A stretch of DNA of 64,000 nucleotides, from positions 9,017-73,016 of the forward strand of contig JAUYBG010000005.1 in NCBI GenBank assembly GCA_030693205.1. Reading direction: 5' to 3'. The notes beneath the pieces were generated by a model that worked only from the letters and a program-made list of their open reading frames with translations, did not search any database and was not told the origin of the DNA. The translations under genes were made by a program, and so were the position numbers. The first letter of the stretch is position 1. Each line of letters begins with the position of its first letter. Below are positions 33,745-63,883 of this stretch, piece by piece. Origin of the DNA: a bacterium. Lineage in GTDB: Bacteria; Patescibacteriota; Minisyncoccia; JAHIHE01.

Positions 33745-33861
33745 TTAAAGTATGTTAAAAAGCAGGGTATTTCGCTCCGCTTTTTAAAATAGTGTTTTTA
33801 GTTGATTTTAAGCGGGTTTTGGGGTAAAATTAGGTAATAGTTGAATTTAAGGAAAATAATT

Positions 33862-36570
33862 ATGCAAGAACAAGCGAAAGAAAAAATAAAAGCGCTGGTG
33901 GAAAAATACGAGAAAATCAAGAGTTCGGGGAAATTAAAATCATATACCGAAGAAGAAACCAAGAAAGATCTAATCCTTCCTCTTTTGGAAGCGCTGGGCT
34001 GGAATGTTTTCGACAAAAACGAAGTTTCAGCCGAAGAACATATCATTTCTTCTGGCAGGGTTGATTACGGGATCTATCTTAACGGCAGGGCTAAATTTTA
34101 TCTGGAAGCAAAAAAGCTTAGCGCGGATTTGCAGCGAGAGGATTTTGCCAACCAATCAATTCGCTATTCGTGGAACAAAGGCGTGACTTGGGCCGTTTTG
34201 ACCGATTTTGAAAGTTTTAAAGTATTCAATGCTCAAGAAATTGATAAATCGCTGGCGGATAAATTGCTTTTTGAAATCCCTTATACCCAATATCTTGAAC
34301 GTTTTGACGAACAATTAAGCCTTCTTTCCAAAGAAGCGTTTGAAAAAGGCCTGATTGATAAATACGCCGAGGAACACGGCAAAAAACTGCAAAAAATATC
34401 CGTAAGCGCGCTTTTATACAAAGATTTGCAAAAAGCCAGAGATATTCTTACTAAAAGTCTGGCGGCGTGGAATGAAAAAGTTCCCAAAGACCTGCTTGAC
34501 GAAGGCGTGCAAAAATTGCTTGATCGCCTTATATTTCTTAGAGTAGCCGAAGATCGCGGCGTTGAGCCGCCGACATTGATTCCGATGATTAGGCAGTGGC
34601 AGGCCAGAAGCAAACAAGAACGCATTTACAAATCAATGATTGAGAAATTTCGGGAATTCGATAAGATTTATAATTCCAATTTATTCTCGCCGCATCCTTT
34701 TGAAGAGTGGGAAGAATACGACGACTCGACTGAAAAGGTGATTAATATTCTCTATGGTAAAAAAGGATATTATGAATACGATTTCAGCGCGATGCCGGCC
34801 GATGTGTTGGGTAGCGTTTACGAGAATTATCTGGGCTATCGGCTTTCACAGTCCAAAAAAGGAATGACTGTTGATAAGGATGCCAAAAAGCGCAAAGAGC
34901 AAGGTATTTATTACACGCCGACTTTTGTGGTTGATTATATTGTCAAAAACGCTTTGGGTCCGGTTTTGGCTGAATGTAAAAGCATCACCGATCTTAAAAA
35001 AATCAAGGTTCTTGATCCGGCTTGCGGTTCGGGCTCGTTTCTTGTCAAGGCTTTGGAAGCGATAAATGATAAATATAAGGATTTCGGCGCTGACGGCGGG
35101 GTTTATACCAAGCTTCAGATTTTAACCGAAAATATCTACGGGGTTGATCTTGACGAACAGGCGGTGGAAATCGCCAGATTGAATTTGTTGATTAACGCTT
35201 TGGATAGCAAGATTAAACTGCCGTCGCTCGCGAAAAATATTAAAAATGGTAATTCACTGATCTCCGACACCGACGAAGAATTAAAAAAATATTTTGGCAA
35301 AAATTTCAGGGACAAAAAGCCATTTAATTGGCAGGAAGAATTTCCAGAAGTTTTCGCGCAAGGCGGTTTTGATGTGATTATTGGCAATCCGCCGTATATT
35401 TTTGCTCGTGGCGGTAATTTTGATGAAAATGAAAAGAAATATTATTATGATAACTTTAAATTGCAGCAGTATCAACTAAATACTTTTTTGCTTTTTATAG
35501 AGCAAGGTTATAATTTATTAAAACAAAACGGCGAGTTTGGTTTTATTGTTCCCAATAATTGGTTGACTATAAATTCATTTTCAAAACTGAGAGAATTTTT
35601 GCTAAAAAATGTTGCTGATTTAAAAATTATTAACGCTATCGAAACTGTTTTTGATCAAGCTAGTGTGGATACAGGCCTTTTGTTATTTCAAAAATCAAAA
35701 CCGACAGAAATTCAACTTGGGGAATTGAAAGAGGGTAATATGCTCGATTTAACTACCTATAAACCAGAAAATTTCTATCAAAATGATTTTATTATTAATA
35801 TTTCAAAATCTAAGAATGTTAACGATAACAATATTTTGAGTAAATTTGAAAAATGTGTTCAACTTAATGAAATTGCGATTGTAAAATCTGGGCTAAAAGC
35901 ATACGAAGTCGGAAAAGGTATTCCTGCTCAAACTAAACAAATGAAGGATGATAGAGTTTATCATTCAAAAACAAAAATTGATCAAAATTATTTTCCCTAC
36001 TTAGAAGGTAAAAATGTTCAAAGGTTTAAAATAAACTGGAGTGGTTGGTATTTGAAATACGGAAAATGCCTTGCTGCCTCCCGAGAAGAAAAGTTATTTA
36101 AAAGTGAAAGAATTTTAGTTAGGCAAATTCCGTCTCCTTTTCCTAGTTGTATAAACGGTGTATTTACCAATAAAGATTATTTAAACGATATAAACAGCAT
36201 GATAATTTATGCTTCTACTAAAGAGTATAATCTTAAATATATTTTAGGGGTTATAAACTCTAGATTAATTTCTTATTGGTTTGTAAAGACTTTTGATAAA
36301 TTTCAGAGAAAGATATTTCCGCAATTTAAGGTTAATGAGCTTGCAAAATTTCCTATTTATCCAGCCAACAGGAAGCAACAGATGACTGTTGTAAATTTAG
36401 TTAATAAAATGCTTGCGTTTAACGAGGAGCTTTTAGAAGCTCCCAAAAATTCCAATAAATGGAATTCGATAAAAGAGGAAATTGAGAAGACGGATAGAAA
36501 AATAGACAAGGAAGTTTATGAGCTTTATGGATTGAGGGAGGAGGAAATTAGGATCGTGGAAAATATATGA
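33862..36570 (+). CDS. Single-chain Type IIG restriction-modification enzyme (N-terminal PD-(D/E)xK nuclease, gamma-class N6-adenine methyltransferase, C-terminal target-recognition domain)
   Basis: N-terminal HsdR_N-like nuclease motif (GRVDYGIYLNGRAKFYLEAKK); methyltransferase motif I VLDPACGSGSFLV and motif IV GNPPYI; long C-terminal specificity domain. Start set to the ATG at 33862; the track start is TTG. Confidence 0.75.
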   Translation: MQEQAKEKIKALVEKYEKIKSSGKLKSYTEEETKKDLILPLLEALGWNVFDKNEVSAEEHIISSGRVDYGIYLNGRAKFYLEAKKLSADLQREDFANQSIRYSWNKGVTWAVLTDFESFKVFNAQEIDKSLADKLLFEIPYTQYLERFDEQLSLLSKEAFEKGLIDKYAEEHGKKLQKISVSALLYKDLQKARDILTKSLAAWNEKVPKDLLDEGVQKLLDRLIFLRVAEDRGVEPPTLIPMIRQWQARSKQERIYKSMIEKFREFDKIYNSNLFSPHPFEEWEEYDDSTEKVINILYGKKGYYEYDFSAMPADVLGSVYENYLGYRLSQSKKGMTVDKDAKKRKEQGIYYTPTFVVDYIVKNALGPVLAECKSITDLKKIKVLDPACGSGSFLVKALEAINDKYKDFGADGGVYTKLQILTENIYGVDLDEQAVEIARLNLLINALDSKIKLPSLAKNIKNGNSLISDTDEELKKYFGKNFRDKKPFNWQEEFPEVFAQGGFDVIIGNPPYIFARGGNFDENEKKYYYDNFKLQQYQLNTFLLFIEQGYNLLKQNGEFGFIVPNNWLTINSFSKLREFLLKNVADLKIINAIETVFDQASVDTGLLLFQKSKPTEIQLGELKEGNMLDLTTYKPENFYQNDFIINISKSKNVNDNNILSKFEKCVQLNEIAIVKSGLKAYEVGKGIPAQTKQMKDDRVYHSKTKIDQNYFPYLEGKNVQRFKINWSGWYLKYGKCLAASREEKLFKSERILVRQIPSPFPSCINGVFTNKDYLNDINSMIIYASTKEYNLKYILGVINSRLISYWFVKTFDKFQRKIFPQFKVNELAKFPIYPANRKQQMTVVNLVNKMLAFNEELLEAPKNSNKWNSIKEEIEKTDRKIDKEVYELYGLREEEIRIVENI

Positions 36571-37166
36571 ATGTAAAAGATAAACAAATTTTAAAAGATT
36601 CAATTGATGTTATTATTTCAAATATTCCAGCATTGAATATTGCTTGGGGGTTAAGTAGAGCACTTTATGGAGCGGGGTTGAAATTACGGGAACAAAGAGC
36701 TTTGGAGTGGGTGGAGATGGTAAGGGATAATCCAGAAGTTTTTACTCAGGAAATATTGCAACAGGAAGAGTTTCAGGACGGATTTGTGTTTTCTCTTGAA
36801 AAGTATTTAACATCACGAAACGAAGAAAAACGTAGATATTTTCGGAATATATTTTTAGGATATTCTAAAAATGATAATAAATACGAGTTTGAATTGGAAA
36901 GATTTGTTCATGTTTTGTCGCAACTAAGTTTAGAAGATATAGATGTTCTTAAATATGTTAATGTTAAAACTCGCAATAGTTACCAAGTTTTTGACGATTC
37001 AAAGTGCTTATCAAGCATTTATCATTTGATTAATTTAGGTATTTTATACAATGATCCTTCGTCTCGAGTTGGTCCTATTGAATTTCCGTTTGTTTATACT
37101 TCGACACTCGGGATAAATTTTATTAAATACCTTAAAAATGAAAAATGTTTGGCCAATAAAAAATAG
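36567..37166 (+). CDS. Hypothetical protein translationally coupled (ATGA overlap) to the Type IIG RM gene
   Basis: 4-nt start/stop overlap with the upstream gene; no recognisable domain. Confidence 0.5.
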   Translation: MNVKDKQILKDSIDVIISNIPALNIAWGLSRALYGAGLKLREQRALEWVEMVRDNPEVFTQEILQQEEFQDGFVFSLEKYLTSRNEEKRRYFRNIFLGYSKNDNKYEFELERFVHVLSQLSLEDIDVLKYVNVKTRNSYQVFDDSKCLSSIYHLINLGILYNDPSSRVGPIEFPFVYTSTLGINFIKYLKNEKCLANKK

Positions 37167-37175
37167 GAGAAATAT

Positions 37176-38639
37176 ATGAATGATAACGATTTATTAAAAA
37201 TATTTTTAGCCGCGCAAGAATGGCAAACATTCGAATGCAAAAGAGCTGCCATTAAACCTGCTGATTTATTAGAAACAGCGGTTGCTTTTGCAAATGCCGA
37301 TGGCGGTCTTGTTGTTATAGGTCTTGAAGATTCCATGAAGGCTCAAGGAGAAAAAAGGTTTATTGGAATTAGTGAGAACGCGAGTAATGTTTCTGACTTT
37401 TTGAAACTGCTAGAAAAAGAAATCGAACCGCCGCTTATGTTGTGGGGAAAGTTTGAGCTTGATATTACAAACACGCAAGGCAAGGCGGATAAGCTTGTGG
37501 TAATAAATATTAAAAAGAGCAATGATGTGCACTCGCTTAAAAGAGGCGATACTTTCGTGAGGAAAGGCCATCAAAATGTTAAAATTGGCTCTACGGAAAT
37601 AATACGGCTTAAATATGAAAAAGGCGCCATAAAGTTTGAAAATGAAAAATCCGATATTGGCCAGCTTAATGATTTAAACCGCGACCTTTTTGAACAGTAT
37701 AAAAAAGATACATCATCCAGCGGTTTAGATGACTGGCAATTCTTGAAAGACAACGGATTAGCTCTAAATGAGGGTGGCAAATATGAATTAACTAAGGCGG
37801 GAATACTTCTTTTTGGTAAAAATCCGTCTGTTATTCTTAAAAGTAAGTGCGGAATAAAAATTTCTCATTACTATGGAACAAAGCCAACATATACCGATAA
37901 ACCGAATTTTGTAAATCGACCGTTTACGATAGAAGGACCGCTAATAAAGCAAATAGAACAAGCCATTGAATATTTTAGCAGTGTTGTTAAAAAGTCTCCG
38001 CCAAAGTTAATTGGCGCTTCTTTTGTTCCGACCTTTTTAATACCGGAATGGGCATTTCAAGAAGCAATAACTAATGCGGTTATCCATCGCAATTATTTTG
38101 TGCAAGACGATATTCAGGTTAGATTTTTTGATGATCGGGTTGAAATAGAAAGTCCAGGCACATACCCTGGTCATATTACAGTTGACAATATTAGATCGGA
38201 AAGATTTTCAAGAAACCCCTTGATTTTAAGAACACTAAATCGTTTTCAGATTGCTCCTAATTTGGATATTGGTGAGGGCGTTGATCGCATGTTTAAGGTA
38301 ATGAAAGAACAAAATTTATATGAACCGTTGTATTTTCCGCCGACCTTAAGGCCAAATTCCGTATTATTGATTTTATTAAATTTACACAAAGTCCAATATT
38401 GGGATACTGTCAGTAAATACGTAGACGAGAATTATCGAATTACAAACAAGAAAGCTCGCGAAATAACCGGTTTAAATGATGTGTTAAAAATGTCTAGGCT
38501 TTTAAAGGCATGGGTTGATAAAGGATTACTTGAAAAAATTGGATTGGCAAAAAAAGATAGCTATTATAGAAAGCCGGGTCAAGAAATACCTAAGCGTTTA
38601 TTTTCAACAGGTATTGATAATAAAATAAAAAATAGGTAA
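37176..38639 (+). CDS. AlbA_2 (Schlafen-like) DNA-binding domain protein with C-terminal HATPase_c_4-like domain and wHTH
   Basis: N-terminus LLKIFLAAQEWQTFECKRAAIKPADLLETAVAFANADGGLVVIGLED is the AlbA_2/divergent AAA-4 signature; C-terminal ITNAVIHRNY...VEIESPG resembles HATPase_c_4; terminal wHTH-like segment. Confidence 0.6.
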   Translation: MNDNDLLKIFLAAQEWQTFECKRAAIKPADLLETAVAFANADGGLVVIGLEDSMKAQGEKRFIGISENASNVSDFLKLLEKEIEPPLMLWGKFELDITNTQGKADKLVVINIKKSNDVHSLKRGDTFVRKGHQNVKIGSTEIIRLKYEKGAIKFENEKSDIGQLNDLNRDLFEQYKKDTSSSGLDDWQFLKDNGLALNEGGKYELTKAGILLFGKNPSVILKSKCGIKISHYYGTKPTYTDKPNFVNRPFTIEGPLIKQIEQAIEYFSSVVKKSPPKLIGASFVPTFLIPEWAFQEAITNAVIHRNYFVQDDIQVRFFDDRVEIESPGTYPGHITVDNIRSERFSRNPLILRTLNRFQIAPNLDIGEGVDRMFKVMKEQNLYEPLYFPPTLRPNSVLLILLNLHKVQYWDTVSKYVDENYRITNKKAREITGLNDVLKMSRLLKAWVDKGLLEKIGLAKKDSYYRKPGQEIPKRLFSTGIDNKIKNR

Positions 38640-47595: not shown

Positions 47596-48026
47596 GGGTG
47601 GAGATGGCGGGAATTGAACCCGCGTCTAGAAAGAAAACCTTAAAATTATCTACTGATGTAGTCTGTTCGTTGTTTTTCGGATCTTTGGTTAGTGAACAAA
47701 CAAGAATACAAAGATCTTATGCTCGGTCTTTTCGGTGAAAGCTCGGAGCCGGGAGAATCCACCTATCCTAATTAATGACACCAGATAACCGACTATTAGG
47801 AGTTATCGGTCTGATGGGTCGTGAACCTTCAACTTGGCTTGTGGCCGAGTAATATTAGGCTACGGCGGCAGCAAAGCTAGGAACTGCAAAAGCTTGCGCT
47901 ACTGCAGACTTAACTTTACCAATAAGTGTTTTGGCACTTAAGTTTGATTCTAAAAGTTTTACGAGGTTTTAGAATACTCGATCAGCAATTTTAAGTTTCA
48001 GCTTCCTATCGAAGCCGGTCATCCCC
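47596..48026 (-). ncRNA. ssrA: tmRNA (SsrA)
   Basis: 5' end GGGGAUGACCGGCUUCGAUAGG (minus strand from 48026). tRNA-like 3' domain with T-arm CGGGTTCAATTCCCG and acceptor CAUCUCC-A-CC giving a G3:U70 pair (the Ala identity element). Internal tag ORF reading ...GCA GUU CCU AGC UUU GCU GCC GCC GUA GCC UAA (AVPSFAAAVA*). Located immediately downstream of smpB. Confidence 0.8.
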
Positions 48027-50702: not shown

Positions 50703-53700
50703 ATGAAAAATAAAGCGGAACAAAAGCAAAAATCTGAAGTGGCGCTTCGGGAAGAAGCGATTTTGAAATTTTGGGAGGAAAACAAGATTTTTCAAAAATC
50801 CGTCAATCAGCGTTCGGGATCAAAAGAATTCGTTTTTTATGAAGGTCCGCCGACTGCCAACGGGAAACCCGGAATTCATCATGTTTTGGCGAGGTCTTTC
50901 AAAGACATAGTCTGCCGTTATAAAACAATGCGGGGATATAGGGTTGAGCGGAAAGCCGGCTGGGATACGCATGGGCTTCCGGTAGAGCTTCAGGTGGAAA
51001 AAGAATTAAAAATTTCTTCTAAGCCTGAAATAGAAAAATATGGCATTGAAGAATTTAATAAGAAATGCAAAGCGTCGGTTTGGGAATACAAAGACGAGTG
51101 GGAACGCCTGACCAAGCGCATCGCTTTCTGGCTGGACTTGGAGCATCCTTACATAACTTATAGCAACGAGTATATTGAATCAGTTTGGTGGATTCTGTCG
51201 GAAATTTACAAAAAAGGCTTGCTTTACGAAGGCCACAAAGTTGTGCCGTATTGTTCGCGCTGCGGCACGGGGCTCTCGAGCCATGAAGTGGCGCAAGGAT
51301 ATAAAAAAATACCGGAAAAATCCGTATATGTGAAATTCAAAGTCAAAAGCCGGCTGGGCACGGGGATTGTCGTCGTCAACGAAAAAGGCGAGATATTGTT
51401 GGGGAAAAGGATCAAAACCGGTCAATGGACTTTGCCCGGAGGAAAAGTGGAAAAAGGCGAAACATACGAAGAAACGATCGTACGCGAGACCAAAGAAGAA
51501 ACAGGGATTGATATCGAGATCGTGAAAACTTTGGGATTGGCCGAAAGCATAATTGACGGCGCGCATTGGCGGTATCAGAATTTCATCGGCCGCGCAAAAG
51601 GCGGGGAATTGAAAGACGAAAAAGGAAAGATCGAAGGCTGGAAATGGATCGCGCCGGATAAATTGCCGGAAAATATTTACGAGCCGAGCGGAAAAACCTT
51701 GAAGCTTTTTTTGGCTGATAAAAAAGGGATTATAAGTGATGTCTTGGTGCATGAAAATGATTCCACATATTTTTTGGTTTGGACCACTACGCCGTGGACT
51801 TTGCCGGGAAATGTGGCACTGGCAGTAGGAAAGGATATTGATTATGTAATAATTAAGTATTTTGGCAATAAATCGTCCAGAAGTATCATTGGGAGCGGGA
51901 ATAGAAAAGAAGGATTAACTGAATCTACAATATTAGCTCCAGGTAATTATATAATAGCCAAAGATATTTTACAAAAAAACTTGGAATCAAATGCGGGGCT
52001 TATAGAAATCAGATATTTGTTCGGTAACATTGATGTGTTTAATGAGAATTTAAGGAAGCATCCTGCGCATCAAGATCTTGACGGTTTATTAAAAGCATAT
52101 AATTTTGATGTTATTAAAGGATCTGAACTTGTCGGTTTGGAATACAAACAATTATTTGATTTTGTAAAACCGGACCCGCTTTCTCCGTCAGTAGGCGGAT
52201 TCAGCGAGGCAAGTAAGCCTGCATTTCGAGTCGTGGCTGGGGATTTTGTGACCACGCAAGACGGTTCGGGCATAGTTCATATTGCGCCGGCGTTTGGCGA
52301 GGATGATATGCGAGTGGCAAAAGAAAATGATTTGCCGGTTTTGATGACTGTGAATTTGCAAGGCAAATTTATTCCGGAAATTACTCCATGGGCGGGAAAA
52401 TATGTGGCCAGAGAAGAAACCAATAAAGAGATTATTACCGAATTGGACAAGAGAAAAGTTTTATTCAAAACCGAAGATATAGAGCATGATTATCCTTTTT
52501 GCTGGCGATGCAATACGAAACTGATCTATTACGCCAAAAAATCTTGGTTTATTAAGATGTCTGATCCGAAAATCAAGAAAGCTTTGATCGAAAATAACGA
52601 AAAAATAAACTGGATACCGGAACATATCAAGAAAGGCCGGATGGGCGAGTGGCTCCGCGAAATAAAAGATTGGGCACTGAGCCGCGAGCGCTATTGGGGA
52701 ACGCCGCTGCCGATTTGGAAATGCGCCAAATGCGGAGATGATAAAATAATCGGTTCGATCGCGGAACTGGAAAAATTTGGCGGTAAGAAACTGGAAGACT
52801 TGCACAGACCGTTCATAGACAAAGTTATTTTTAAGTGCGATAAATGCGGCGGCGAAATGAAGAGGATCACGGACGTGATTGATTGCTGGTTTGATTCCGG
52901 CTCAATGCCTTTCAGTCAATGGCATTATCCTTTTGAAAACAAAGAATTAGTCGACCCTTCGACAGGCTCAGGGCAGGCTAAAGGCAAGAAATTTCCGGCT
53001 GATTATATTTCCGAAGCGATCGATCAGACAAGAGGGTGGTTCTATACTTTGCTGGCGATTGCCACGCTTTTGGGAAAAAGCGCGCCTTACAAGAATGTCA
53101 TAACTTACGGCCATATTCTGGACGCGAAAGGCCAAAAAATGAGCAAATCCAAAGGCAATGTCGTCAGTCCATGGGAAGTGGCTGATAAATATGGCATAGA
53201 TATTTTGCGCTGGTATTTTTATACGGTCGGCGGACCCGGAGAGCCGAAGCGTTTTGATTTCAAGGATCTTAATGAAGTGCAAAATAAATTTTATCGCACT
53301 TTATGGAATTCATATCAATTTTTTAAGACATACGCGGGCAAAGCCAAAAGCCAAAAGCCCACAGCCAAAAATCAAAATTTATTGGATAAGTGGATTGTTT
53401 CGCGGCTCAATGAAACGATTTTTGAAACGACAAAACTTTTGGATGATTATGATATTATTCGCTCGGCTCGTCTTATCGGCGATTTTACGGATGATCTGTC
53501 GAATTGGTATATCCGCCGCTCACGCGACAGGATGCGGGTTGAGGAATCCGCGGCCCTTTGGACGCTTTTGGCGGTCTTGAGCGAATTGACAAAGCTTGCC
53601 GCGCCTTTCGTGCCGTTTATTTCAGAAGAAATTTATCGAGATATTAAAACAGGCGGTTCTCCGGAAAGCATTCATCTTTCGGATTGGCCGAAAGCCGATG

Positions 53701-54266
53701 AAAAATTAATTGATAAGAAATTAAACGAGGAAATGAAATTAGTCCGTGAAATTGTTACTTTGGGTTTGGCCGCGCGCGCGAAATCAAAAATTAAAGTCAG
53801 GCAGCCTTTGGCCCTGCTGGAAGTTCAGGGAACGAAAGAAAAAATAAAAGCCGACTTGTTGGAATTAGTAAACGATGAATTGAATGTTAAAAAAGTAGCT
53901 TTTGTTTCTGAGGTTAGCGCAAAGAGCGGTTGGATATCGGAAACTAATGGCCGGATTGCAATTGCGCTTGATACAAAAATCACCGATGAACTTAAAGAAG
54001 AGGGAGTTGTTCGCGATATTGCGCGGCATATCCAGACAATGCGCAAAGACTTGGGTTTGACCAAGGAAGATTTGATCGAAGTTTTTTACGGAAAAAACGG
54101 AAGTGCGGGGAAAATTTTCGCCAATGCCAAATGGCAAAAATATATCAAAGAAAAAACCATTACGAAAAATATCGATAAATATGAAGAAGGCGGAAAATAC
54201 GATATGGAAAAAGATTTGGAGATCGAAGGCGAAAAAATTAAATTCGCGGTTAAGAAAGTGAAATAA
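50703..54266 (+). CDS. ileS: Isoleucyl-tRNA synthetase carrying an inserted NUDIX hydrolase domain (about aa 217-348)
   Basis: Class I signatures PPTANGKPGIHH (HIGH region) and KMSKSKGN; editing-domain hallmark LVWTTTPWTLPGN; anticodon-binding C-terminal region. Between SVYVKFKVKS and YFLVWTTTPWTLP sits a roughly 130-aa insert with a perfect Nudix box GGKVEKGETYEETIVRETKEETGI. Confidence 0.9.
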   Translation: MKNKAEQKQKSEVALREEAILKFWEENKIFQKSVNQRSGSKEFVFYEGPPTANGKPGIHHVLARSFKDIVCRYKTMRGYRVERKAGWDTHGLPVELQVEKELKISSKPEIEKYGIEEFNKKCKASVWEYKDEWERLTKRIAFWLDLEHPYITYSNEYIESVWWILSEIYKKGLLYEGHKVVPYCSRCGTGLSSHEVAQGYKKIPEKSVYVKFKVKSRLGTGIVVVNEKGEILLGKRIKTGQWTLPGGKVEKGETYEETIVRETKEETGIDIEIVKTLGLAESIIDGAHWRYQNFIGRAKGGELKDEKGKIEGWKWIAPDKLPENIYEPSGKTLKLFLADKKGIISDVLVHENDSTYFLVWTTTPWTLPGNVALAVGKDIDYVIIKYFGNKSSRSIIGSGNRKEGLTESTILAPGNYIIAKDILQKNLESNAGLIEIRYLFGNIDVFNENLRKHPAHQDLDGLLKAYNFDVIKGSELVGLEYKQLFDFVKPDPLSPSVGGFSEASKPAFRVVAGDFVTTQDGSGIVHIAPAFGEDDMRVAKENDLPVLMTVNLQGKFIPEITPWAGKYVAREETNKEIITELDKRKVLFKTEDIEHDYPFCWRCNTKLIYYAKKSWFIKMSDPKIKKALIENNEKINWIPEHIKKGRMGEWLREIKDWALSRERYWGTPLPIWKCAKCGDDKIIGSIAELEKFGGKKLEDLHRPFIDKVIFKCDKCGGEMKRITDVIDCWFDSGSMPFSQWHYPFENKELVDPSTGSGQAKGKKFPADYISEAIDQTRGWFYTLLAIATLLGKSAPYKNVITYGHILDAKGQKMSKSKGNVVSPWEVADKYGIDILRWYFYTVGGPGEPKRFDFKDLNEVQNKFYRTLWNSYQFFKTYAGKAKSQKPTAKNQNLLDKWIVSRLNETIFETTKLLDDYDIIRSARLIGDFTDDLSNWYIRRSRDRMRVEESAALWTLLAVLSELTKLAAPFVPFISEEIYRDIKTGGSPESIHLSDWPKADEKLIDKKLNEEMKLVREIVTLGLAARAKSKIKVRQPLALLEVQGTKEKIKADLLELVNDELNVKKVAFVSEVSAKSGWISETNGRIAIALDTKITDELKEEGVVRDIARHIQTMRKDLGLTKEDLIEVFYGKNGSAGKIFANAKWQKYIKEKTITKNIDKYEEGGKYDMEKDLEIEGEKIKFAVKKVK
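51351..51746 (+). other. NUDIX hydrolase domain inserted in-frame within ileS
   Basis: Nudix box Gx5Ex7REUxEExGU fully satisfied (G-KVEKG-E-TYEETIV-RE-T-K-EE-T-G-I); flanked on both sides by conserved IleRS segments in the same frame. Confidence 0.8.
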
Positions 54267-57341: not shown

Positions 57342-58580
<1,239 letters not shown>

Positions 58581-58589
58581 AAGGTAGAT

Positions 58590-58622
58590 AAAAAAAAGAG
58601 CGGTTAAGCCGCTCTAAAATTT
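58590..58622. terminator. Bidirectional terminator hairpin AGAGCGG-ttaa-CCGCTCT between the convergent tgt and large minus-strand genes
   Basis: aaaaaaAGAGCGGttaaGCCGCTCTaaaatttt. Confidence 0.6.
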
Positions 58623-60950
58623 TAGAGATATTGTTTCTCCGTTTATTGTTATCACATCGAGCTTTGCCATAAAATCTAAGTATGGCGTGAGGGTGATATC
58701 CTTTATTCTAAATATTTCTCTTATTTTTCTCTTTTTTAAAGATCCTCCTGCGTCATTCAGCTTCTCCAATATTTCTTTTTGTTTATCACAAAGTTCGGGT
58801 GTGGCTTTGAGTTGCGCTAACGTTCTTTTAGGTTTTCCTGCGATATCTGTACCGTTTACATTGCTTTCATTTTGCAACTTTTCTCTCAGCTCATTCATCG
58901 TAACTATTTTTTCCTCCGGTTTTTCTTGCGGCGGCTTATCTTTTTCGAGCTCGCTCAAGAACTCTGTTTCACTCAATAGTTCGATCGTGCTATTTTCGAA
59001 ATCGTCTTCGTTAAGGCTGATTTTTATAGCTTTTATTCGGTCGTTTGGATTGTCGGTTTTTTTATTCATTGTTTTGACAATTGCCGAAATAAAAGTTTTT
59101 GCTTGATTTTTCTTAACGCCCGCCTTACTGCAAACAACAGACAAACTGATTTTTTCTCCTTTTTCCAGATAGTCATTTAAGTAGTCTTCCACTTGTTGTT
59201 TTCTATTATCTGGTAAGGAACTTAGCAAGCCGGGTTCTTTGTTTGTTAAAGAATCGGACAAGAGCAATAATTCAGCTTTTATTGTTTCGTTTGGCTCTGT
59301 TTTTGTTTCCGTCGATTTCGGCGGTTTTTGAACGATTTCCGGCTCTGCGATTTTTTCTTCCGGTTTTTTCTGTTCTGACGGTTGGCGCTGGCTATTCTCG
59401 TCTTTTTCTGGAGTTATTTCTGGTTTTGTCTGCTCCGTAGGTTTTATCATATCCGGAAGCTGGAGTCGGATTTGATCCACTTGAGCTGTTACTCTGGAAC
59501 GTATGCCCTCTTGCCTATTTTTAACCAAACCTTTTTCAGCCAGTGTTCTTACGGATAGGTTTACTCTGGTCTGGATAATGCGGGTTTTTTCGATTATTTC
59601 TTGTTGCAAAATACCAGCTTGTCCGTTTTCAATTATTACCCGCAAGACTTGCAAGTCTTTTAGAGACAGCTTTACGTCTGCCAAAGACTTTTTTTCTTTC
59701 GCAGGATTTTTTTCCGCAATTGTTTCATTTGACGTTTTTAGTTTTACCGAGTGTTTATGCTTTTCGGCGATTCCCAAAGTTTCCAGCTCTTTTGCCAAGC
59801 TACGGACAGTAGCGGTTGTGCATCGCATTCTTTCCGCCAGATCTGTTATTGTTGTTTGCTGCTGATCGCTGTTGATAATAATACCGACAGCGGCAGCTAA
59901 ACTGCTTACCCTTGTGTGATTTCTATTAAGATTGGCTTTCCGCAATTTTTCCTCTATCAGCTCCTGGATTTTTTTCATTTGTTCGTCTAGAGAACCGATC
60001 AGTTTTAGATCTATTATCTCTTTATAAAGATCGCCGGTTTCCGGTGCTGGTTCACTTGGTTTATCGGTTATTTTTGTCAGCTCGTTAACTTTTTGAGTTT
60101 TTTCGCCTAACAATAAACTGAGTTTGATTATTTCTCCATCGAGCCGTTTAATTGTCGCGTTGCGATCGGCGATTGTTTTTTGAGCTTCTTCAAGCCGCAG
60201 GTTTTTTTCATCAAGCCATTCTTTGAATTTGCCTTTTTCTTTTAACGCTTGATCGAGCCGTCTTTCTAATTCGGCAACTTGATTTAACAGTTCTTTGTCT
60301 GTCGGTAACCCTTTTTCCCGAGCTTCTCCGAGGGCTTTTTTAAGTCCTTCTATTTCAGTATAAGCCATTTGGCAAATTTCCTCGGATTTTTTAAGAGCTA
60401 TCGTCAGTTTCTTGATTTCTTTCTCGTCCGGTTTTGGGATTTCGGCAGAGTGGCCATTTCCTGTTAAATTTGTTAGCACGCTTCCGTTATTGGAAATACT
60501 GTAGAAGTCAGTATTTGTCTTGTCAATGCCGTTTACGAAACCCTTTTTAAGGAGAATTCCCGGCAAGCCGTCGCCGCTTGAAACCATCAAGGTAATAAGC
60601 GACAAGTGCATTTCTTTAAACGCGCACTCTTTGAAGCTTTCTATGGCGCTTGCGATCATTTCTTGGTTATTCCGCATCGATTTTTCAAAAGCGATGCTGA
60701 ATATCCCGAAGCTATTTTTAATAATCGTATGCGCCAGCACAACCCCGATGGCCGTTTGTTTTTGATCTTCGTTTTTTTCTATTATAAATACGCGTCCGCA
60801 GGTTGTTTCTTTCTGCAAGGTTTCATCGCAAAACGGCTTATCAATACAGACAGCCTCTGTTGAATTAATTATACTAAGTATGGCTGGGATCAATTTCTGA
60901 TCCGATGCGAACTTGCTCATTACTCTAATGCCTATTCCATCATTTCCCAT
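58614..60950 (-). CDS. Large hypothetical protein (about 778 aa): N-terminal globular domain, long coiled coil, two MarR-like winged-helix segments, Pro/Glu/Lys-rich linker, C-terminal domain
   Basis: Start placed at the ATG at 60950 (MGNDGIGIRVMSKFASDQK...), because the track's longer N-terminus overlaps the upstream HTH gene. The start has a GGGAAGTG ribosome-binding site and a TTGACA/TAATAT promoter. wH-like segments TTITDLAERMRCTTATVRSLAKELETLGI and LQVLRVIIENGQAGILQQEIIEKTRIIQTRVNLSVRTLAEKGLV. Confidence 0.5.
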   Translation of the reverse strand: MGNDGIGIRVMSKFASDQKLIPAILSIINSTEAVCIDKPFCDETLQKETTCGRVFIIEKNEDQKQTAIGVVLAHTIIKNSFGIFSIAFEKSMRNNQEMIASAIESFKECAFKEMHLSLITLMVSSGDGLPGILLKKGFVNGIDKTNTDFYSISNNGSVLTNLTGNGHSAEIPKPDEKEIKKLTIALKKSEEICQMAYTEIEGLKKALGEAREKGLPTDKELLNQVAELERRLDQALKEKGKFKEWLDEKNLRLEEAQKTIADRNATIKRLDGEIIKLSLLLGEKTQKVNELTKITDKPSEPAPETGDLYKEIIDLKLIGSLDEQMKKIQELIEEKLRKANLNRNHTRVSSLAAAVGIIINSDQQQTTITDLAERMRCTTATVRSLAKELETLGIAEKHKHSVKLKTSNETIAEKNPAKEKKSLADVKLSLKDLQVLRVIIENGQAGILQQEIIEKTRIIQTRVNLSVRTLAEKGLVKNRQEGIRSRVTAQVDQIRLQLPDMIKPTEQTKPEITPEKDENSQRQPSEQKKPEEKIAEPEIVQKPPKSTETKTEPNETIKAELLLLSDSLTNKEPGLLSSLPDNRKQQVEDYLNDYLEKGEKISLSVVCSKAGVKKNQAKTFISAIVKTMNKKTDNPNDRIKAIKISLNEDDFENSTIELLSETEFLSELEKDKPPQEKPEEKIVTMNELREKLQNESNVNGTDIAGKPKRTLAQLKATPELCDKQKEILEKLNDAGGSLKKRKIREIFRIKDITLTPYLDFMAKLDVITINGETISLKF

Positions 60951-61072
60951 AGTATCACTTCCCGCGCTTGAAGCGCTTTTGTTGTTCGTCCTTGTTTTTA
61001 ATTGTAAGGTACAGTGATTCCATATTAATATAAACAAGAATTTTGTCAATAAAAATAGCAGCCGATTTTGCG

Positions 61073-61390
61073 TTATGGCTGCTTTTTCTTTTTTATTTTT
61101 ATGTACCAGATTTCCAGCTTTCCTTCTGTTTCGGAAAATATTTCTATTTTCGTATCCGGGCTGCGGTAGTTGGCGCGCATATCCCATATTCCCCGTTCGC
61201 TAGTATCCATTATTTTAGCCGCTTCTTCCAGCGTGATCGCTTGATCTCTTCCGGTTAGTAAGGCCTCAAGCTCTTTAAGTTTTCCAACAATCAGGTTTTT
61301 TTCAGGGTTTTTCATCATTCTTTGCAGCCTTTCAAAATTTATCCGCTGTTGTTCCGGCGACACAGTTTTGGTTTTTTGATTTTTTGGCAC
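61073..61390 (-). CDS. Excisionase-family helix-turn-helix (HTH_17-like) DNA-binding protein
   Basis: GTG start with AAAGGAGG ribosome-binding site; C-terminal ITLEEAAKIMDTSERGIWDMRANYRSPD matches the excisionase/MerR-like HTH pattern (lt..EaAe.lgvs..tiy.l...g); own TTGACA-16-TAATAT promoter; hairpin terminator GCAGCC...GGCTGC after the stop. Confidence 0.55.
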   Translation of the reverse strand: MPKNQKTKTVSPEQQRINFERLQRMMKNPEKNLIVGKLKELEALLTGRDQAITLEEAAKIMDTSERGIWDMRANYRSPDTKIEIFSETEGKLEIWYIKIKKKKQP

Positions 61391-61512
61391 GGTTGATTCC
61401 TCCTTTAAAGTGCTTTTTGATAAATTTTATCTATATTAGCATATATCCACAGCTTGTCAATCGTGGTTGTTTATGATAAATTAAAAGAGTTAAACTACAT
61501 CAAATTATATTT

Positions 61513-62922
61513 ATGGCAGAAAAAAATACAGACAAAATGGAAAAAATCGTTTCGCTTTGCAAAAGACGGGGTTTTGTGTATCCGGGAAGCGAAATTTATG
61601 GCGGATTAGCCAATACTTGGGATTACGGTCCTTTGGGCGCAGAATTGAAAAATAATATTAAAAGGCTTTGGTGGAAGACGTTTGTTCAGCAAAGAGATGA
61701 TATGGTGGGAATTGACGCCAGTATTTTAATGAATCCGAAAGTCTGGGAAGCGTCCGGACATACGACCAGTTTTGCCGATGCGAAAATTGATTGTCTCGCG
61801 TGCAAAGCCAGGATCAGAGCGGATCATATGATCGAAGATGAGCTGAAAATAAGCGTGGAAGGGAAAAGCTTGGAAGATATCAATAAAATTATTTCTGACA
61901 ATAAATTAAAATGCCCGGTTTGTAAGTCCGTAAAATTGACCGAAGCGAGGAAGTTCAATTTGCTTTTCAAAACCCAAGTCGGATCGCTGGAAGACGCGAA
62001 GGCCGCGGTTTATCTTCGCGGCGAGACGGCTCAAGCAATGTTTGTAAATTTCAAAAATGTTTTGAATTCCAGCCGCAAGAAAATTCCTTTTGGTATCGCG
62101 CAGGTCGGAAAAGCTTTCCGGAACGAGATCACTCCGGGCAATTTTATTTTCCGCACTTTGGAATTCGAGCAGATGGAAATAGAATATTTTATCCGCGAGA
62201 AGGATTGGGAGAAAACTTTTGATTACTGGAAAGATGAAATGAAAAAATGGGCTACGAAAATTTTAGGGCTTAAAAAAGAAAACATTCGGGTGCGCGAGCA
62301 TGCCAAGGAAGAATTGTCGCATTATTCCCGGCGCACTGTTGATTTCGAGTTTAATTTTCCGTTCGGAGGATTCAAAGAATTATATGGTTTGGCATATCGC
62401 ACGGATTTTGACCTGACGGCGCATCAAAAAGCGAGCGGCGAGGATATGAGCTATTTTGACGAAGCAGCCAAAGAGAAATTTATTCCGCACGTGATCGAGC
62501 CGACTTTTGGAGTGGACAGAAGTATTTTGGCAGTGCTGGCCGACAGTTTCGAGGTTATTAAAGGCGGGCGAACGACAACTACGGAATCGATCAAGGAAGA
62601 AGAATTTGTTTTGCGTTTGGCTCCGCGCATCGCGCCGATCAAAGCCGCGATTCTGCCTTTGGTAAAAAAAGATCCGCTGAAAAAGCTGGCTGGGGAAATT
62701 TACAAAGACCTTCGCGAGCAGTGGATGGTGCAGTACGATGAAACCGGTTCGGTTGGCAAGCGATATCGCCGGCAAGACGAGATCGGCACGCCATTTTGCG
62801 TGACGGTGGATTTTGATTCGCTGGAAGACAATGCGGTCACGGTTCGCGACCGCGACACGATGAAACAAGAGAGAATAAAGATTGCCGAGCTCGCGGATTA
62901 TCTGGAAGAAAAATTAATTTAA
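61513..62922 (+). CDS. glyQS: Glycyl-tRNA synthetase (dimeric class II, GlyQS type)
   Basis: RRGFVYPGSEIYGGLANTWDYGPLG N-terminus, class II motifs, 469 aa. Confidence 0.92.
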   Translation: MAEKNTDKMEKIVSLCKRRGFVYPGSEIYGGLANTWDYGPLGAELKNNIKRLWWKTFVQQRDDMVGIDASILMNPKVWEASGHTTSFADAKIDCLACKARIRADHMIEDELKISVEGKSLEDINKIISDNKLKCPVCKSVKLTEARKFNLLFKTQVGSLEDAKAAVYLRGETAQAMFVNFKNVLNSSRKKIPFGIAQVGKAFRNEITPGNFIFRTLEFEQMEIEYFIREKDWEKTFDYWKDEMKKWATKILGLKKENIRVREHAKEELSHYSRRTVDFEFNFPFGGFKELYGLAYRTDFDLTAHQKASGEDMSYFDEAAKEKFIPHVIEPTFGVDRSILAVLADSFEVIKGGRTTTTESIKEEEFVLRLAPRIAPIKAAILPLVKKDPLKKLAGEIYKDLREQWMVQYDETGSVGKRYRRQDEIGTPFCVTVDFDSLEDNAVTVRDRDTMKQERIKIAELADYLEEKLI

Positions 62923-62926
62923 AAAG

Positions 62927-63883
62927 ATGACGATAAAAGAAATTTATAATTTGGCGATAAAGATGGGAATCGAATCCGATCTGCGCGGGAAAGAAAAAGT
63001 CCAGCGGCTTTTGAAGCGCGCAAAAGAACAATATGAGAAATTAAACAAAGAAGAAAAAGAAGAATTTGATGCGGAAAAATTAAGCAATCCTTATTCGGAT
63101 TCAAGAATACTTTTGACGGATTCGGATAAAAAAGTAAAAAAAATATTGGCGGGCATAGATATTGATACGGGAGAGGTGTTGCTGGCCGATAAGCTAGGGG
63201 TTGATTTAATTATTAGTCATCATCCAATGGGGAAAGCGCTGGCAAAACTTGATGACGTGATGCATTTGCAGGCAGAGGTGCTGAATATTAAATATGGCGT
63301 GCCGATAAACATTGCTCAAGGAGTGATTAGGGAAAAAATCAGTGAAGTGGGGCGTTCGGTTATTAGGGGGAATTATAATCAGTCAATTGATGCCGCTCGG
63401 CTGATTAAGCAAAGCATGATCTGTGTTCATACGCCTTGTGATAACTTGGTGGCAAAATTTCTTTGCGAAAATATTGAAAAAGAAAATTTTGAATATGTTG
63501 GTGATTTGCTTAAGTTTTTAAAAGAAATTTCTGAATATAAGGAAGCGATAAAATTAAATGCCGGACCGCGTCTTTTTGCCGGTTTGCCGGAAAATTATAC
63601 CGGAAAAATTGCCATAACGGAAATTACCGGAGGCACCGAAGGCGCGCCGCAAATTTACGAAAAAATGGCGCAAGCGGGAATTGGGACGATTATAGGCATG
63701 CATATGAGCGAAGAGCACAAAAAAGAGGCGGAAAAGGCGCATATCAATGTTGTAATTGCCGGCCATATGTCCAGTGATTCGCTCGGAATGAATTTATTTC
63801 TTGATGAATTGGAGAAAAAAGGAATTGAAGTTATCCCATGCTCGGGATTAATCAGGATTAAAAGGTTTTTAAAGAAATCATAA
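62927..63883 (+). CDS. Nif3-like dinuclear metal centre protein (YqfO/NIF3 family)
   Basis: DLIISHHP motif and C-terminal metal-binding His/Glu pattern (MSEEHKKEAEKAHINVVIAGHMSSD). Confidence 0.7.
   Translation: MTIKEIYNLAIKMGIESDLRGKEKVQRLLKRAKEQYEKLNKEEKEEFDAEKLSNPYSDSRILLTDSDKKVKKILAGIDIDTGEVLLADKLGVDLIISHHPMGKALAKLDDVMHLQAEVLNIKYGVPINIAQGVIREKISEVGRSVIRGNYNQSIDAARLIKQSMICVHTPCDNLVAKFLCENIEKENFEYVGDLLKFLKEISEYKEAIKLNAGPRLFAGLPENYTGKIAITEITGGTEGAPQIYEKMAQAGIGTIIGMHMSEEHKKEAEKAHINVVIAGHMSSDSLGMNLFLDELEKKGIEVIPCSGLIRIKRFLKKS

What the first reader, a model, noticed from the sequence alone, without database searches (positions are those of the whole stretch)
58614..61390. Two-gene module (excisionase-type HTH and a 778-aa coiled-coil / double winged-helix protein) wedged between tgt and glyQS on the opposite strand
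Both genes have their own near-consensus promoters (TTGACA-16-TAATAT) and strong ribosome-binding sites, and hairpin terminators on both sides. The small protein has an excisionase/MerR-like HTH. The large one combines an unrecognised N-terminal globular domain, a roughly 200-aa coiled coil, two MarR-like wH segments, a Pro/Lys/Glu-rich linker and a C-terminal domain. This is not a known housekeeping architecture. The placement, antisense to the flanking tRNA-modification and aaRS genes, suggests an inserted element. Candidates include a remnant of a mobile element's regulatory or partition module, a nucleoid/segregation factor or an abortive-infection sensor.
Basis: inference. Interest (0 to 1): 0.55.

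Follow-up and report, generated by a model that had tools for sequence, protein, structure and literature searches.

The report
Clade-specific pair of winged-helix DNA-binding genes
Two real genes in a small Patescibacteria clade, one a small winged-helix protein and one a 778-aa protein with a probably inactive acetyltransferase-like domain, a coiled coil and four winged-helix units, sit at a fixed site between tgt and glyS, evolve fast, and show no sign of being a mobile element.

Summary
Two intact minus-strand genes (105 aa and 778 aa) each have a TTGACA-16-TAATAT promoter, and hairpin terminators follow both.

The interpretation needs correcting:
- The "unrecognised" N-terminal domain is a GNAT fold of the RimJ/RimL/SpeG/MccE type (profile against PDB, E 3.6e-8). 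Its acetyl-CoA loop is degenerate.
- The coiled coil covers about 80-120 aa, not 200.
- There are four winged-helix (wH) units, not two.
- The small protein is a generic wH. No profile or fold match makes it an excisionase.

The family is tiny: 10 representatives among 1.84 billion proteins. Every recovered member with enough flanking DNA lies between glyS and tgt. The large protein is only 24-27% identical where TGT is 79-87%, and its domains are reshuffled between genomes.

In other CPR genomes tgt and glyS are adjacent on one strand. The module is therefore an old addition in this clade that is now fixed. It has no integrase, no flanking repeats, no GC shift and no viral relatives.

Best reading: separately transcribed (possibly self-regulated) DNA-binding regulators or DNA organisers. 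The function is inferred, not shown. Interest is moderate.

The parts
61433..61460 (-). Promoter of the small gene: TTGACA (61460-61455), 16 nt, TAATAT (61438-61433), with TG before the -10
   Evidence: 10 of 12 positions; sequence; conserved in L001, L005 and L007
61454..61482 (+). Likely glyS promoter, TTGTCA-17-TAAATT with TG. Its -35 overlaps the small gene's -35 back to back. It lies inside a stretch of about 60 nt that is nearly invariant among relatives
   Evidence: 9 of 12 positions; alignment. Promoter function is inferred
61419..61431 (.). Palindrome GATAAA-A-TTTATC immediately after the small gene's -10. Candidate operator
   Evidence: read; kept in L001 and L007 but not in L005. 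AT-rich, so chance cannot be excluded. Inference
61073..61390 (-). Small gene, 105 aa. Two N-terminal helices followed by a winged helix (strand 52-53, helices 54-60 and 65-74, beta hairpin 80-101). Basic, pI 9.6
61051..61082 (-). Terminator of the small gene: GCAGCC (61082-61077), 13-nt loop containing the stop codon, GGCTGC (61063-61058), then a T-run running into the next -35
   Evidence: read; conserved in L001. Missed by the scan because the loop exceeds 8 nt
61022..61049 (-). Promoter of the large gene, TTGACA-16-TAATAT
   Evidence: an equivalent promoter is present in L001, L005, L088, L090, L093 and L094
61003..61013 (-). Conserved box TGTACCTTACA (TGTA-N3-TACA) about 8-18 nt after the -10. 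It is present in every large-gene leader recovered. Candidate operator or start-site element
   Evidence: it is the only copy in the 64-kb window. Function is inferred
60964..60976 (-). GC-rich hairpin GCGCTTCAAGCGC directly 5' of the ribosome-binding site GGGAAG. A hairpin at the same place but with a different stem sequence occurs in L088, L090 and L093
   Evidence: -3.8 to -9.8 kcal/mol. RNAalifold found no consensus structure on the automatic alignment
58614..60950 (-). Large gene, 778 aa
60456..60950 (-). aa 1-165: GNAT-fold domain of the RimJ/RimL/SpeG/MccE type, subtype A, with a degenerate acetyl-CoA loop
60060..60425 (-). aa about 176-297: K/E/L-rich helical region. Heptad signal is strongest at aa 209-290. 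Contains the family motif KEKGKFKEWL
   Evidence: in-house heptad score, not a calibrated predictor
59739..59918 (-). aa 345-404: winged helix 1, pI 9.1
   Evidence: pLDDT 80-90; weak Pfam HTH hits
59484..59663 (-). aa 430-489: winged helix 2, MarR-like. The best-conserved wH across the family, pI 10.8
   Evidence: MarR_2, 34.3 bits, above the cutoff; Lrs14, E 8.8e-7
59277..59441 (-). aa 504-558: disordered Glu/Lys/Pro-rich linker
   Evidence: pLDDT below 50
58941..59276 (-). aa 559-670: winged-helix-like middle module (family motif GSKCGVKK). Acidic, pI 4.9, so more likely a protein-contact module
   Evidence: (pLDDT 70-84)
58623..58787 (-). aa 722-776: C-terminal winged helix 4, pI 9.2
   Evidence: pLDDT about 90; weak MarR and Z-alpha profile hits
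58597..58615 (-). Hairpin AGAGCGGCTTAACCGCTCT plus T-run. Terminator of the large gene, positioned to serve the convergent tgt as well

Best explanation
This is a chromosomal, vertically inherited gene pair restricted to one small Patescibacteria clade. It encodes two separately transcribed winged-helix (wH) DNA-binding proteins.

The large protein is built like a one-component regulator or DNA organiser:
- A GNAT-fold N-terminal domain has lost the glycine-rich acetyl-CoA loop. It therefore probably acts as a ligand-binding, protein-binding or oligomerisation module rather than as an enzyme.
- A coiled coil dimerises the protein.
- Three basic wH units (wH1, wH2, wH4) contact nucleic acid.
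- One acidic wH-like unit sits among them, and flexible Glu/Lys/Pro linkers separate the later units. One dimer could therefore hold several DNA sites at once.

The small protein is a second, basic wH protein.

Each gene has a near-consensus promoter followed by a conserved or palindromic element at the transcription start. A hairpin also sits in front of the large gene's ribosome-binding site. This suggests tight self-regulation.

What is shown: the genes, promoter-consensus and terminator-like sequence motifs, the domain folds, positional conservation, mosaic fast evolution and purifying selection.

What is inferred: DNA binding, dimerisation, loss of acetyltransferase activity, self-regulation, and any target beyond its own locus.
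For: Domains:
- MarR_2 is above the Pfam cutoff, and wH hits recur in 5 of 10 relatives.
- The AlphaFold model shows four units with wH topology at pLDDT 70-90.
- Foldseek's best matches are WH arrays: TFIIIC tau138 at 1.2e-5, ScpB at 1.6e-3, plus Pol III C34 and SelB.
- wH1, wH2 and wH4 have pI 9.1-10.8.
- The N-terminal profile hits only GNAT structures: MccE 3.6e-8, SpeG about 1e-7, RimJ. This holds when only the window's own subtype is used: AAC(6') 7.5e-5, MccE 1e-3.
- In those alignments the family has non-glycine, often acidic residues where the templates have QGKG or SGKG. It has A, L or I where SpeG has the Tyr before GF.
- The small protein's model is a wH with a beta hairpin, and all of its fold hits are wH regulators.

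Fixed locus:
- The arrangement glyS, then the module on the opposite strand, then tgt is seen in L001, L003-L006, L088-L091 and L093.
- The genes are real and constrained: dN/dS 0.18-0.45.
- The leader box and the hairpin before the ribosome-binding site are conserved even where the proteins are about 25% identical.
Against: - No experimental or annotation link to any function exists. The family has only about a dozen members.
- Divergence is extreme (24-27% identity where TGT is 79-87%) and domains are swapped between genomes. This is unusual for a core regulator and fits conflict-type genes better.
- The partner gene varies: absent in L090, a 308-aa protein in L088, and a second paralogue-like gene in L093. 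The pair is therefore not an obligate two-component unit.
- The L005 homologue lacks the canonical wH2 yet keeps the leader box. This weakens the idea that wH2 binds the box.
- wH domains can bind RNA or protein instead of DNA.
- No second copy of the box was found in 64 kb, so no regulon is visible.
Confidence: 0.45

Rival explanations
1. It is a conflict or defence-type locus: a fast-evolving nucleic-acid sensor (wH array) with a decoy or sensor GNAT-like domain, sitting in a variable island of the chromosome.
For: - Mosaic domain swapping occurs: the N-terminal cassette is replaced between the window and L001 while the flanks are 80-86% identical in DNA, and P0002 combines a subtype-B N-terminus with a window-like C-terminus.
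- Divergence is far faster than in the neighbours, and dN/dS is relaxed.
- The tgt-glyS junction holds varied cargo across CPR genomes.
- In L003 an AAA_14/DUF4143 ATPase is inserted next door.
- Each gene has its own strong promoter.
Against: - No effector domain is present: no nuclease, TIR, toxin or membrane domain.
- PADLOC gives only sub-threshold wH matches, E at or above 0.003.
- The GNAT loop is degenerate.
- The gene occupies the same site in all relatives rather than being patchy.
- The 64-kb window does contain a clearer defence cluster elsewhere, a type IIG RM plus a Schlafen/AlbA_2 protein at 33.8-38.6 kb.
Confidence: 0.13
2. It is the remnant of an integrated mobile element's regulatory or partition module.
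For: - The strand is opposite to nearly all neighbours.
- tgt and glyS are adjacent in other CPR genomes, so the DNA was inserted at some point.
- There are weak PHROG hits to DnaD-like and replication-initiator wH regions, E 0.009-0.08.
Against: - No integrase, transposase or other mobile-element gene lies within 10 kb on either side.
- No flanking direct or inverted repeats exceed chance.
- GC is 0.395, identical to the window.
- The small protein has no viral-contig relatives.
- The location is the same in genomes whose TGT is only 67-87% identical.
- The genes are under purifying selection.
Confidence: 0.1
3. It is an active bifunctional acetyltransferase and regulator. The N-terminal GNAT acetylates a protein, polyamine or aminoacyl-nucleotide, and the wH array directs or reports that activity.
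For: - Homology to MccE, SpeG, RimJ and AAC(6') is significant.
- The invariant G and GF motif are kept.
- HTH plus GNAT fusions are commonly annotated in bacteria (own knowledge).
Against: - Motif A (Q/R-x-x-G-x-G/A) has no glycine at the pyrophosphate-binding position in any of the 12 members. Most carry Glu there.
- The Asn and Tyr of the N..A...Y..GF segment in SpeG-type enzymes are absent.
- The window's copy is also shortened after the GF motif.
Confidence: 0.1
4. It is a GNAT-type toxin-antitoxin pair (like TacAT, AtaRT or KacAT) acting on aminoacyl-tRNA, which would echo the tRNA-related neighbours.
For: - A small DNA-binding protein is encoded upstream of a GNAT-containing protein.
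- The neighbours are GlyRS and TGT.
Against: - The genes are not an operon. Each has its own promoter, and a terminator lies between them.
- The upstream protein is not an RHH/DUF1778 protein.
- The GNAT is fused to 600 further residues and lacks the acetyl-CoA loop.
- The upstream partner is absent in L090 and different in L088.
Confidence: 0.03

Closest known systems
Bifunctional HTH (MarR-type) / GNAT N-acetyltransferase fusion proteins (a common PGAP product name; recalled from memory, not tested here)
   Same: Combines a MarR-like winged helix with a GNAT-fold domain in one polypeptide.
   Different: - The usual fusions are about 300 aa, with one wH and an intact acetyl-CoA loop.
- Here the GNAT is N-terminal and degenerate. 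It is followed by a coiled coil, four wH units and two disordered linkers, 778 aa in total.
TrmB-type one-component regulators (wH, coiled-coil dimerisation helix, effector-binding domain)
   Same: - The logic is the same: sensor or effector domain, dimerising coiled coil, then wH DNA-binding.
- wH2 gives weak TrmB hits, E 1.2e-4.
   Different: - The domain order is reversed.
- The sensor is a GNAT fold, not a sugar-binding domain.
- There are extra wH units.
- The TrmB score is below the Pfam cutoff.
Winged-helix arrays: TFIIIC tau138 (B-block-binding subunit), Pol III C34, ScpB, SelB C-terminus
   Same: - It shares the beads-on-a-string series of wH domains.
- These are the best Foldseek matches, 1.2e-5 to 6e-2.
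- Relatives give weak B-block_TFIIIC Pfam hits.
   Different: - TM-scores are low (0.1-0.36), so only single domains superpose.
- There is no sequence-profile membership.
- No SMC/ScpA partner is nearby; the 1187-aa neighbour is IleRS, not SMC.
RimJ/RimL/SpeG/MccE subgroup of GNAT acetyltransferases (Pfam Acetyltransf_3)
   Same: - The N-terminal domain aligns over the whole GNAT core.
- It keeps the GF-x-EG segment and the strands that follow.
   Different: - The acetyl-CoA pyrophosphate loop and the Tyr/Asn of the alpha-4 segment are not conserved.
- No family member reaches the Pfam cutoff alone; the best is E 0.008.
Excisionase / MerR-like HTH_17 proteins
   Same: The small protein is short and basic, with an HTH followed by a beta-hairpin wing.
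   Different: - There is no profile match.
- Fold hits are MarR, ArsR, TFE and Z-alpha rather than Xis.
- It has an extra N-terminal helical hairpin with weak similarity to the UvrB UVR domain, E 0.004.
- There is no integrase or att site.

Membership tests
GNAT superfamily (fold) | Sequence-profile similarity across the conserved GNAT core (beta4-alpha3-beta5-alpha4-beta6) | tested here: met
   - Family profile against PDB: 25 GNAT chains at E below 1e-3, best MccE at 3.6e-8.
- The subtype-A-only profile also hits only GNATs at the top, best 7.5e-5.
GNAT superfamily (active enzyme) | Motif A, Q/R-x-x-G-x-G/A, the loop that binds the acetyl-CoA pyrophosphate | tested here: not met
   In the HMMER alignments the templates have QGKG or SGKG. 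The family has RNNQ (window), EGKS, VKEA or ESKE, with no Gly at the key position in any of the 12 members.
GNAT superfamily (active enzyme) | Catalytic general acid or base (for example the Tyr before GF in SpeG-type enzymes) | tested here: inconclusive
   The aligned position is A, L or I in the family. Catalytic residues differ among GNATs, so their absence is suggestive only.
GNAT superfamily (active enzyme) | Acetyl-CoA binding and acyl transfer | not testable with these tools
   Needs biochemistry.
MarR-family regulators | Winged HTH matching the MarR/MarR_2 profile | tested here: met
   MarR_2 scores 34.3 bits against a cutoff of 27 at aa 428-477. Relatives reach up to 48.7 bits.
MarR-family regulators | A protein of about 140-160 aa whose N- and C-terminal helices form the dimer interface around a single wH | tested here: not met
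   The wH is one of four units in a 778-aa protein. Flanking segments are disordered linkers.
Excisionase / HTH_17 (small protein) | Profile match to excisionase or MerR-type HTH families | tested here: not met
   Pfam, NCBIfam, PHROGs and PADLOC give nothing except DUF134 at E 0.02. The PDB profile search gives no excisionase.
Excisionase / HTH_17 (small protein) | Association with an integrase and attachment sites | tested here: not met
   No integrase lies in the flanks. No flanking repeats were found.
Type II GNAT toxin-antitoxin (TacAT/AtaRT/KacAT) | A co-transcribed antitoxin-toxin bicistron, with an RHH/DUF1778 antitoxin and a standalone toxin of about 170 aa | tested here: not met
   There are separate promoters and an intervening terminator. 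The upstream protein has a wH fold. The GNAT domain is part of a 778-aa protein.
Integrated mobile element | Recombinase gene, flanking repeats, compositional difference, patchy distribution among close relatives | tested here: not met
   The module is present at the same site in all recovered relatives. The only supporting point is that it is absent from distant CPR genomes where tgt and glyS abut.
ScpB-like tandem WH (condensin accessory) | Two tightly packed WH domains that bind the ScpA kleisin, with a genomic or functional link to SMC-ScpA | tested here: inconclusive
   Foldseek gives E 1.6e-3 but TM only 0.36 at most. wH1 and wH2 are separated by a 25-aa low-confidence linker. No scpA or smc gene is nearby.

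The most novel reading that the evidence does not exclude
The glyS-tgt junction of this Patescibacteria clade may host a previously undescribed class of hypervariable, cassette-shuffled proteins. Each would combine a pseudo-acetyltransferase, a coiled coil and an array of winged helices. Such proteins could act in genetic conflict, for example by sensing or silencing foreign DNA, or in contact with the host cell, rather than in ordinary gene regulation. The degenerate GNAT domain would serve as a decoy or a sensor.
Probability: 0.12. Interest if true: 0.65.

Novelty: new variant of a known kind. Interest (0 to 1): 0.38.

Why it matters
Patescibacteria have tiny genomes and few recognisable regulators or nucleoid proteins, and many of their proteins are unannotated orphans. 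This work turns two "hypothetical proteins" into a defined architecture: a degenerate GNAT fold, a coiled coil and four winged helices, plus a small winged-helix protein. It also maps candidate promoters and operators.

The locus stays at a fixed site while its protein evolves several times faster than its neighbours by swapping domains. That gives a concrete, testable candidate for either a clade-specific chromatin or regulatory factor, or a conflict gene. The practical importance is modest unless a function is demonstrated.

Tried and rejected
- **Word-indexed homologue searches.** The single-sequence search for the large protein found only itself and one relative. Repeating it with the 12-member alignment found nothing more, because low-complexity words filled the candidate cap. 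Only the exhaustive HMMER search recovered the family.
- **GTDB genome scan with GlyRS.** The best match was 63% identical, and none of the 80 loci carries the module. The scan was useful only for ancestral synteny.
- **Viral and metagenome scans.** With the small protein it found no relatives. The metagenome scan re-found one contig already in hand.
- **Rfam.** Nothing was found on the module or on L007.
- **Leader structure.** RNAalifold on the large-gene leaders gave no consensus structure. The hairpins were only seen by folding each sequence alone. A longer-range pairing of the 5' box with downstream sequence is not conserved in L001, so I dropped it.
- **Flanking repeats.** Only low-complexity chance matches were found.
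- **Regulon search.** No further copy of the TGTACCTTACA box exists in the window. The AT-rich palindrome is mildly over-represented, but its copies do not cluster at gene starts, so this is uninformative.
- **SMC link.** The 1187-aa neighbour is IleRS, not SMC.
- **Literature.** Two full-text searches found nothing relevant.
- **AFDB fold library.** It was unavailable.


Full report
**1. The observation**

The region holds two intact minus-strand ORFs. One runs 58614-60950 (778 aa from the ATG at 60950). The other runs 61073-61390 (105 aa, GTG start). They lie between tgt (57357-58580, Pfam TGT, E 2e-145) and a single-chain GlyRS (61513-62922). Both flanking genes are on the plus strand.

An NCBI MAG annotates both genes identically as hypothetical proteins of an unclassified "bacterium".

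- Each gene has a TTGACA-16-TAATAT promoter, at 61460-61433 and at 61049-61022. These are among the four best matches (10 of 12) in the 5-kb scan.
- The small gene has an AAGGAGG ribosome-binding site. The large gene has a weaker GGGAAG.
- A hairpin plus T-run follows the large gene at 58615-58597. Another lies between the two genes at 61082-61051.
- The two genes are therefore separate transcription units.
- Almost every other gene in the 64-kb window is on the plus strand, so the strand oddity is real.

**2. Domain anatomy of the large protein**

Pfam finds a MarR_2 winged helix above the curated cutoff at aa 428-477. A weaker HTH signal lies at aa 357-400. NCBIfam relates the first of these to archaeal Lrs14 and Sta1 regulators.

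The family profile of the N-terminal 165 aa, searched against PDB sequences, hits only GNAT acetyltransferases:

| Template | E-value |
|---|---|
| MccE | 3.6e-8 |
| SpeG-type diamine/spermidine N-acetyltransferases | about 1e-7 |
| AAC(6') | 1.5e-4 |
| RimJ | 3e-4 |

The result holds when only the window's own subtype is used.

In those alignments the acetyl-CoA loop of the templates (QGKG or SGKG) is replaced by residues without glycine, often Glu. The Tyr and Asn of the segment before GF are also missing. I infer from this that the domain is a non-catalytic GNAT fold.

A K/E/L-rich helical region follows. Heptad periodicity covers about aa 209-290, perhaps starting at aa 176. That makes it roughly 80-120 aa, not 200.

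An AlphaFold model of aa 300-778 was built on a 10-sequence alignment (mean pLDDT 70). It shows four units with winged-helix topology:

| Unit | Residues | pLDDT | pI |
|---|---|---|---|
| wH1 | 345-404 | 80-90 | 9.1 |
| wH2 | 430-489 | about 89 | 10.8 |
| wH3-like | 559-670 | 70-84 | 4.9 |
| wH4 | 722-776 | about 90 | 9.2 |

Disordered Glu/Lys/Pro-rich linkers lie at aa 504-558 and aa 671-705.

Foldseek's best PDB matches are winged-helix arrays such as TFIIIC tau138, ScpB, Pol III C34, ESCRT-II and SelB. TM-scores are low, so only single domains superpose.

**3. The small protein**

No profile library recognises it; the best hit is DUF134 at E 0.02.

A model built on seven homologues (pLDDT 71) shows two N-terminal helices. 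These are followed by strand-helix-helix and a beta hairpin. All fold matches are generic winged-helix regulators such as PefR/MarR, ArsR, TFE-alpha and Z-alpha. The best is E 0.076 at probability above 0.9.

The helical hairpin has a weak resemblance to the UvrB UVR domain, E 0.004. The "excisionase-type" label has no specific support.

**4. Relatives and genomic context**

The family is very small. The word-indexed search found one relative of the large protein and six of the small one among 5.8 billion clusters. The exhaustive HMMER search found ten representatives among 1.84 billion.

Members share a modular plan:
- a GNAT-like N-terminus in two subtypes;
- an optional coiled coil carrying the KEKGKFKEWL motif;
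- a MarR-like wH;
- a K/E/P-rich linker;
- a middle module with the GSKCGVKK motif;
- an optional C-terminal wH.

Wherever enough flanking DNA exists, the gene lies between a divergent glyS and a convergent tgt. This is the case in L001, L003-L006, L088/L089, L090/L091 and L093.

The partner gene varies:
- a wH protein of about 100 aa in the window, L001 and L003-L007;
- a 308-aa protein in L088;
- none in L090;
- a second gene with a similar layout (not detected by BLASTP) downstream in L093;
- in L007 the small gene is present, but the large gene is replaced by about 600 nt of apparently non-coding sequence.

**5. Rate and mode of evolution**

TGT in these loci is 67-87% identical to the window's. 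The large protein is only 24-27% identical in L088, L090 and L093.

Against L001, DNA identity is:

| Window segment | Identity to L001 |
|---|---|
| 61601-60933 | 86% |
| 60933-60285 (N-terminal domain and first coiled-coil half) | none detected |
| 60285-57554 | 80% |

The L001 protein's N-terminus is instead 54% identical to that of L005. Domains are therefore exchanged as cassettes.

The alignable parts are under purifying but relaxed selection. dN/dS is 0.18-0.45 for the large gene and 0.45 for the small gene, against 0.11 for tgt.

**6. Insertion or not?**

In 80 GTDB genomes fetched with GlyRS, none has the module. Several Patescibacteria show DUF11-tgt-glyS on one strand. tgt and glyS are 79-110 bp apart in L044 and L049. 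Other genomes carry unrelated cargo at this junction.

The module is therefore an addition in this clade at a junction that is variable across the phylum. Within the clade it is fixed. The evidence against a recent mobile origin is as follows:
- It shows no flanking repeats.
- Its GC is 0.395, identical to the window.
- Its flanks are housekeeping genes with no recombinase.
- The small protein has no relatives in viral contigs.

**7. Cis elements**

All large-gene leaders share two elements. One is a box, TGYACMTTACA, just after the -10 (61013-61003 in the window). The other is a short GC-rich hairpin immediately 5' of the ribosome-binding site (60976-60964). The hairpin's stem sequence differs between loci.

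The small gene's -10 is followed by the palindrome GATAAAATTTATC (61431-61419). It is conserved in L001 and L007.

The small gene's -35 overlaps, back to back, a likely glyS promoter, TTGTCA-17-TAAATT. This lies within a stretch of about 60 nt that is nearly invariant across loci.

These elements suggest self-regulation and possibly cross-talk with glyS. That is inference only. No further box copies occur in the window.

**8. Explanation and verdict**

The most likely reading is a clade-specific pair of DNA-binding proteins. The large one is a coiled-coil dimer with several DNA-contacting winged helices and a non-catalytic GNAT-fold sensor or oligomerisation domain. It would act as a regulator or DNA organiser and probably controls its own expression (confidence about 0.45).

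The fast, cassette-wise evolution keeps a conflict or defence role open (about 0.13). A mobile-element remnant (about 0.10), an active acetyltransferase-regulator (about 0.10) and a toxin-antitoxin pair (about 0.03) fit the evidence less well.

The architecture is not described in any library searched, but it is assembled from well-known domain kinds. I therefore class it as a new variant of a known kind, of moderate interest.

Noticed in passing
window 50703-54266 (+): A 1187-aa class-I aminoacyl-tRNA synthetase (IleRS-like: tRNA-synt_1, Anticodon_1, DUF5915) carries a NUDIX hydrolase domain inserted at aa 216-334. This is an unusual fusion.
   Followed up: no
window 61454-61540 and the matching parts of L001, L003/L005, L007, L088: About 60 nt covering the glyS start codon, 5' leader and likely promoter are almost identical among loci whose GlyRS proteins are only 48-61% identical overall. 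No obvious Shine-Dalgarno sequence precedes glyS. This may be a regulatory constraint or a recombination tract.
   Followed up: partly
L003 (GCA_018898755.1) versus window 61513-63883: On one contig NIF3 is 90% identical to the window's but the adjacent GlyRS is only 48%, and TGT in the sister contig L005 is 67%. An AAA_14/DUF4143 ATPase gene is inserted between NIF3 and glyS, flanked by two copies of the glyS 3' end. This suggests xenologous replacement or recombination around glyS.
   Followed up: partly
L007 1170-1807: Where relatives have the large gene, this contig has a consensus promoter, a 14-codon ORF and about 500 nt of GC-richer, apparently non-coding sequence. No Rfam match was found.
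   Followed up: partly
L093 2636-4060: A second 474-aa gene lies downstream of the family member P0016. It has a similar layout (globular N-terminus, acidic/proline linker, middle module, C-terminal wH) and the same leader box, but no BLAST-detectable similarity.
   Followed up: partly
L037 7524-7862: In a Parcubacteria genome a canonical 112-aa GNAT with an intact RGQGTG loop sits between tgt and glyS on the same strand as them. This may be coincidence, or a hint about where the family's N-terminal domain came from.
   Followed up: no
window 31319-33031 (-): A 570-aa radical-SAM protein with a Radical_SAM_C domain, similar in size and layout to Elp3. It is one of the few other minus-strand genes.
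   Followed up: no
window 33841-38639 (+): A type IIG restriction-modification enzyme (Eco57I/MmeI-like methylase plus TaqI_C) is followed, after a 199-aa ORF (36567-37166), by a Schlafen AlbA_2 / HATPase_c_4 protein. This is a likely defence cluster.
   Followed up: no
window 47596-48026 (-): tmRNA gene with tag peptide AKTLIGKVKSAVAQAFAVPSFAAAVA.
   Followed up: no
window 60964-60976 (+ strand reading): The hairpin in the large gene's leader reads on the plus strand as a terminator-like hairpin followed by TTTTGTTGTT. It could stop antisense transcripts reading through from tgt.
   Followed up: no
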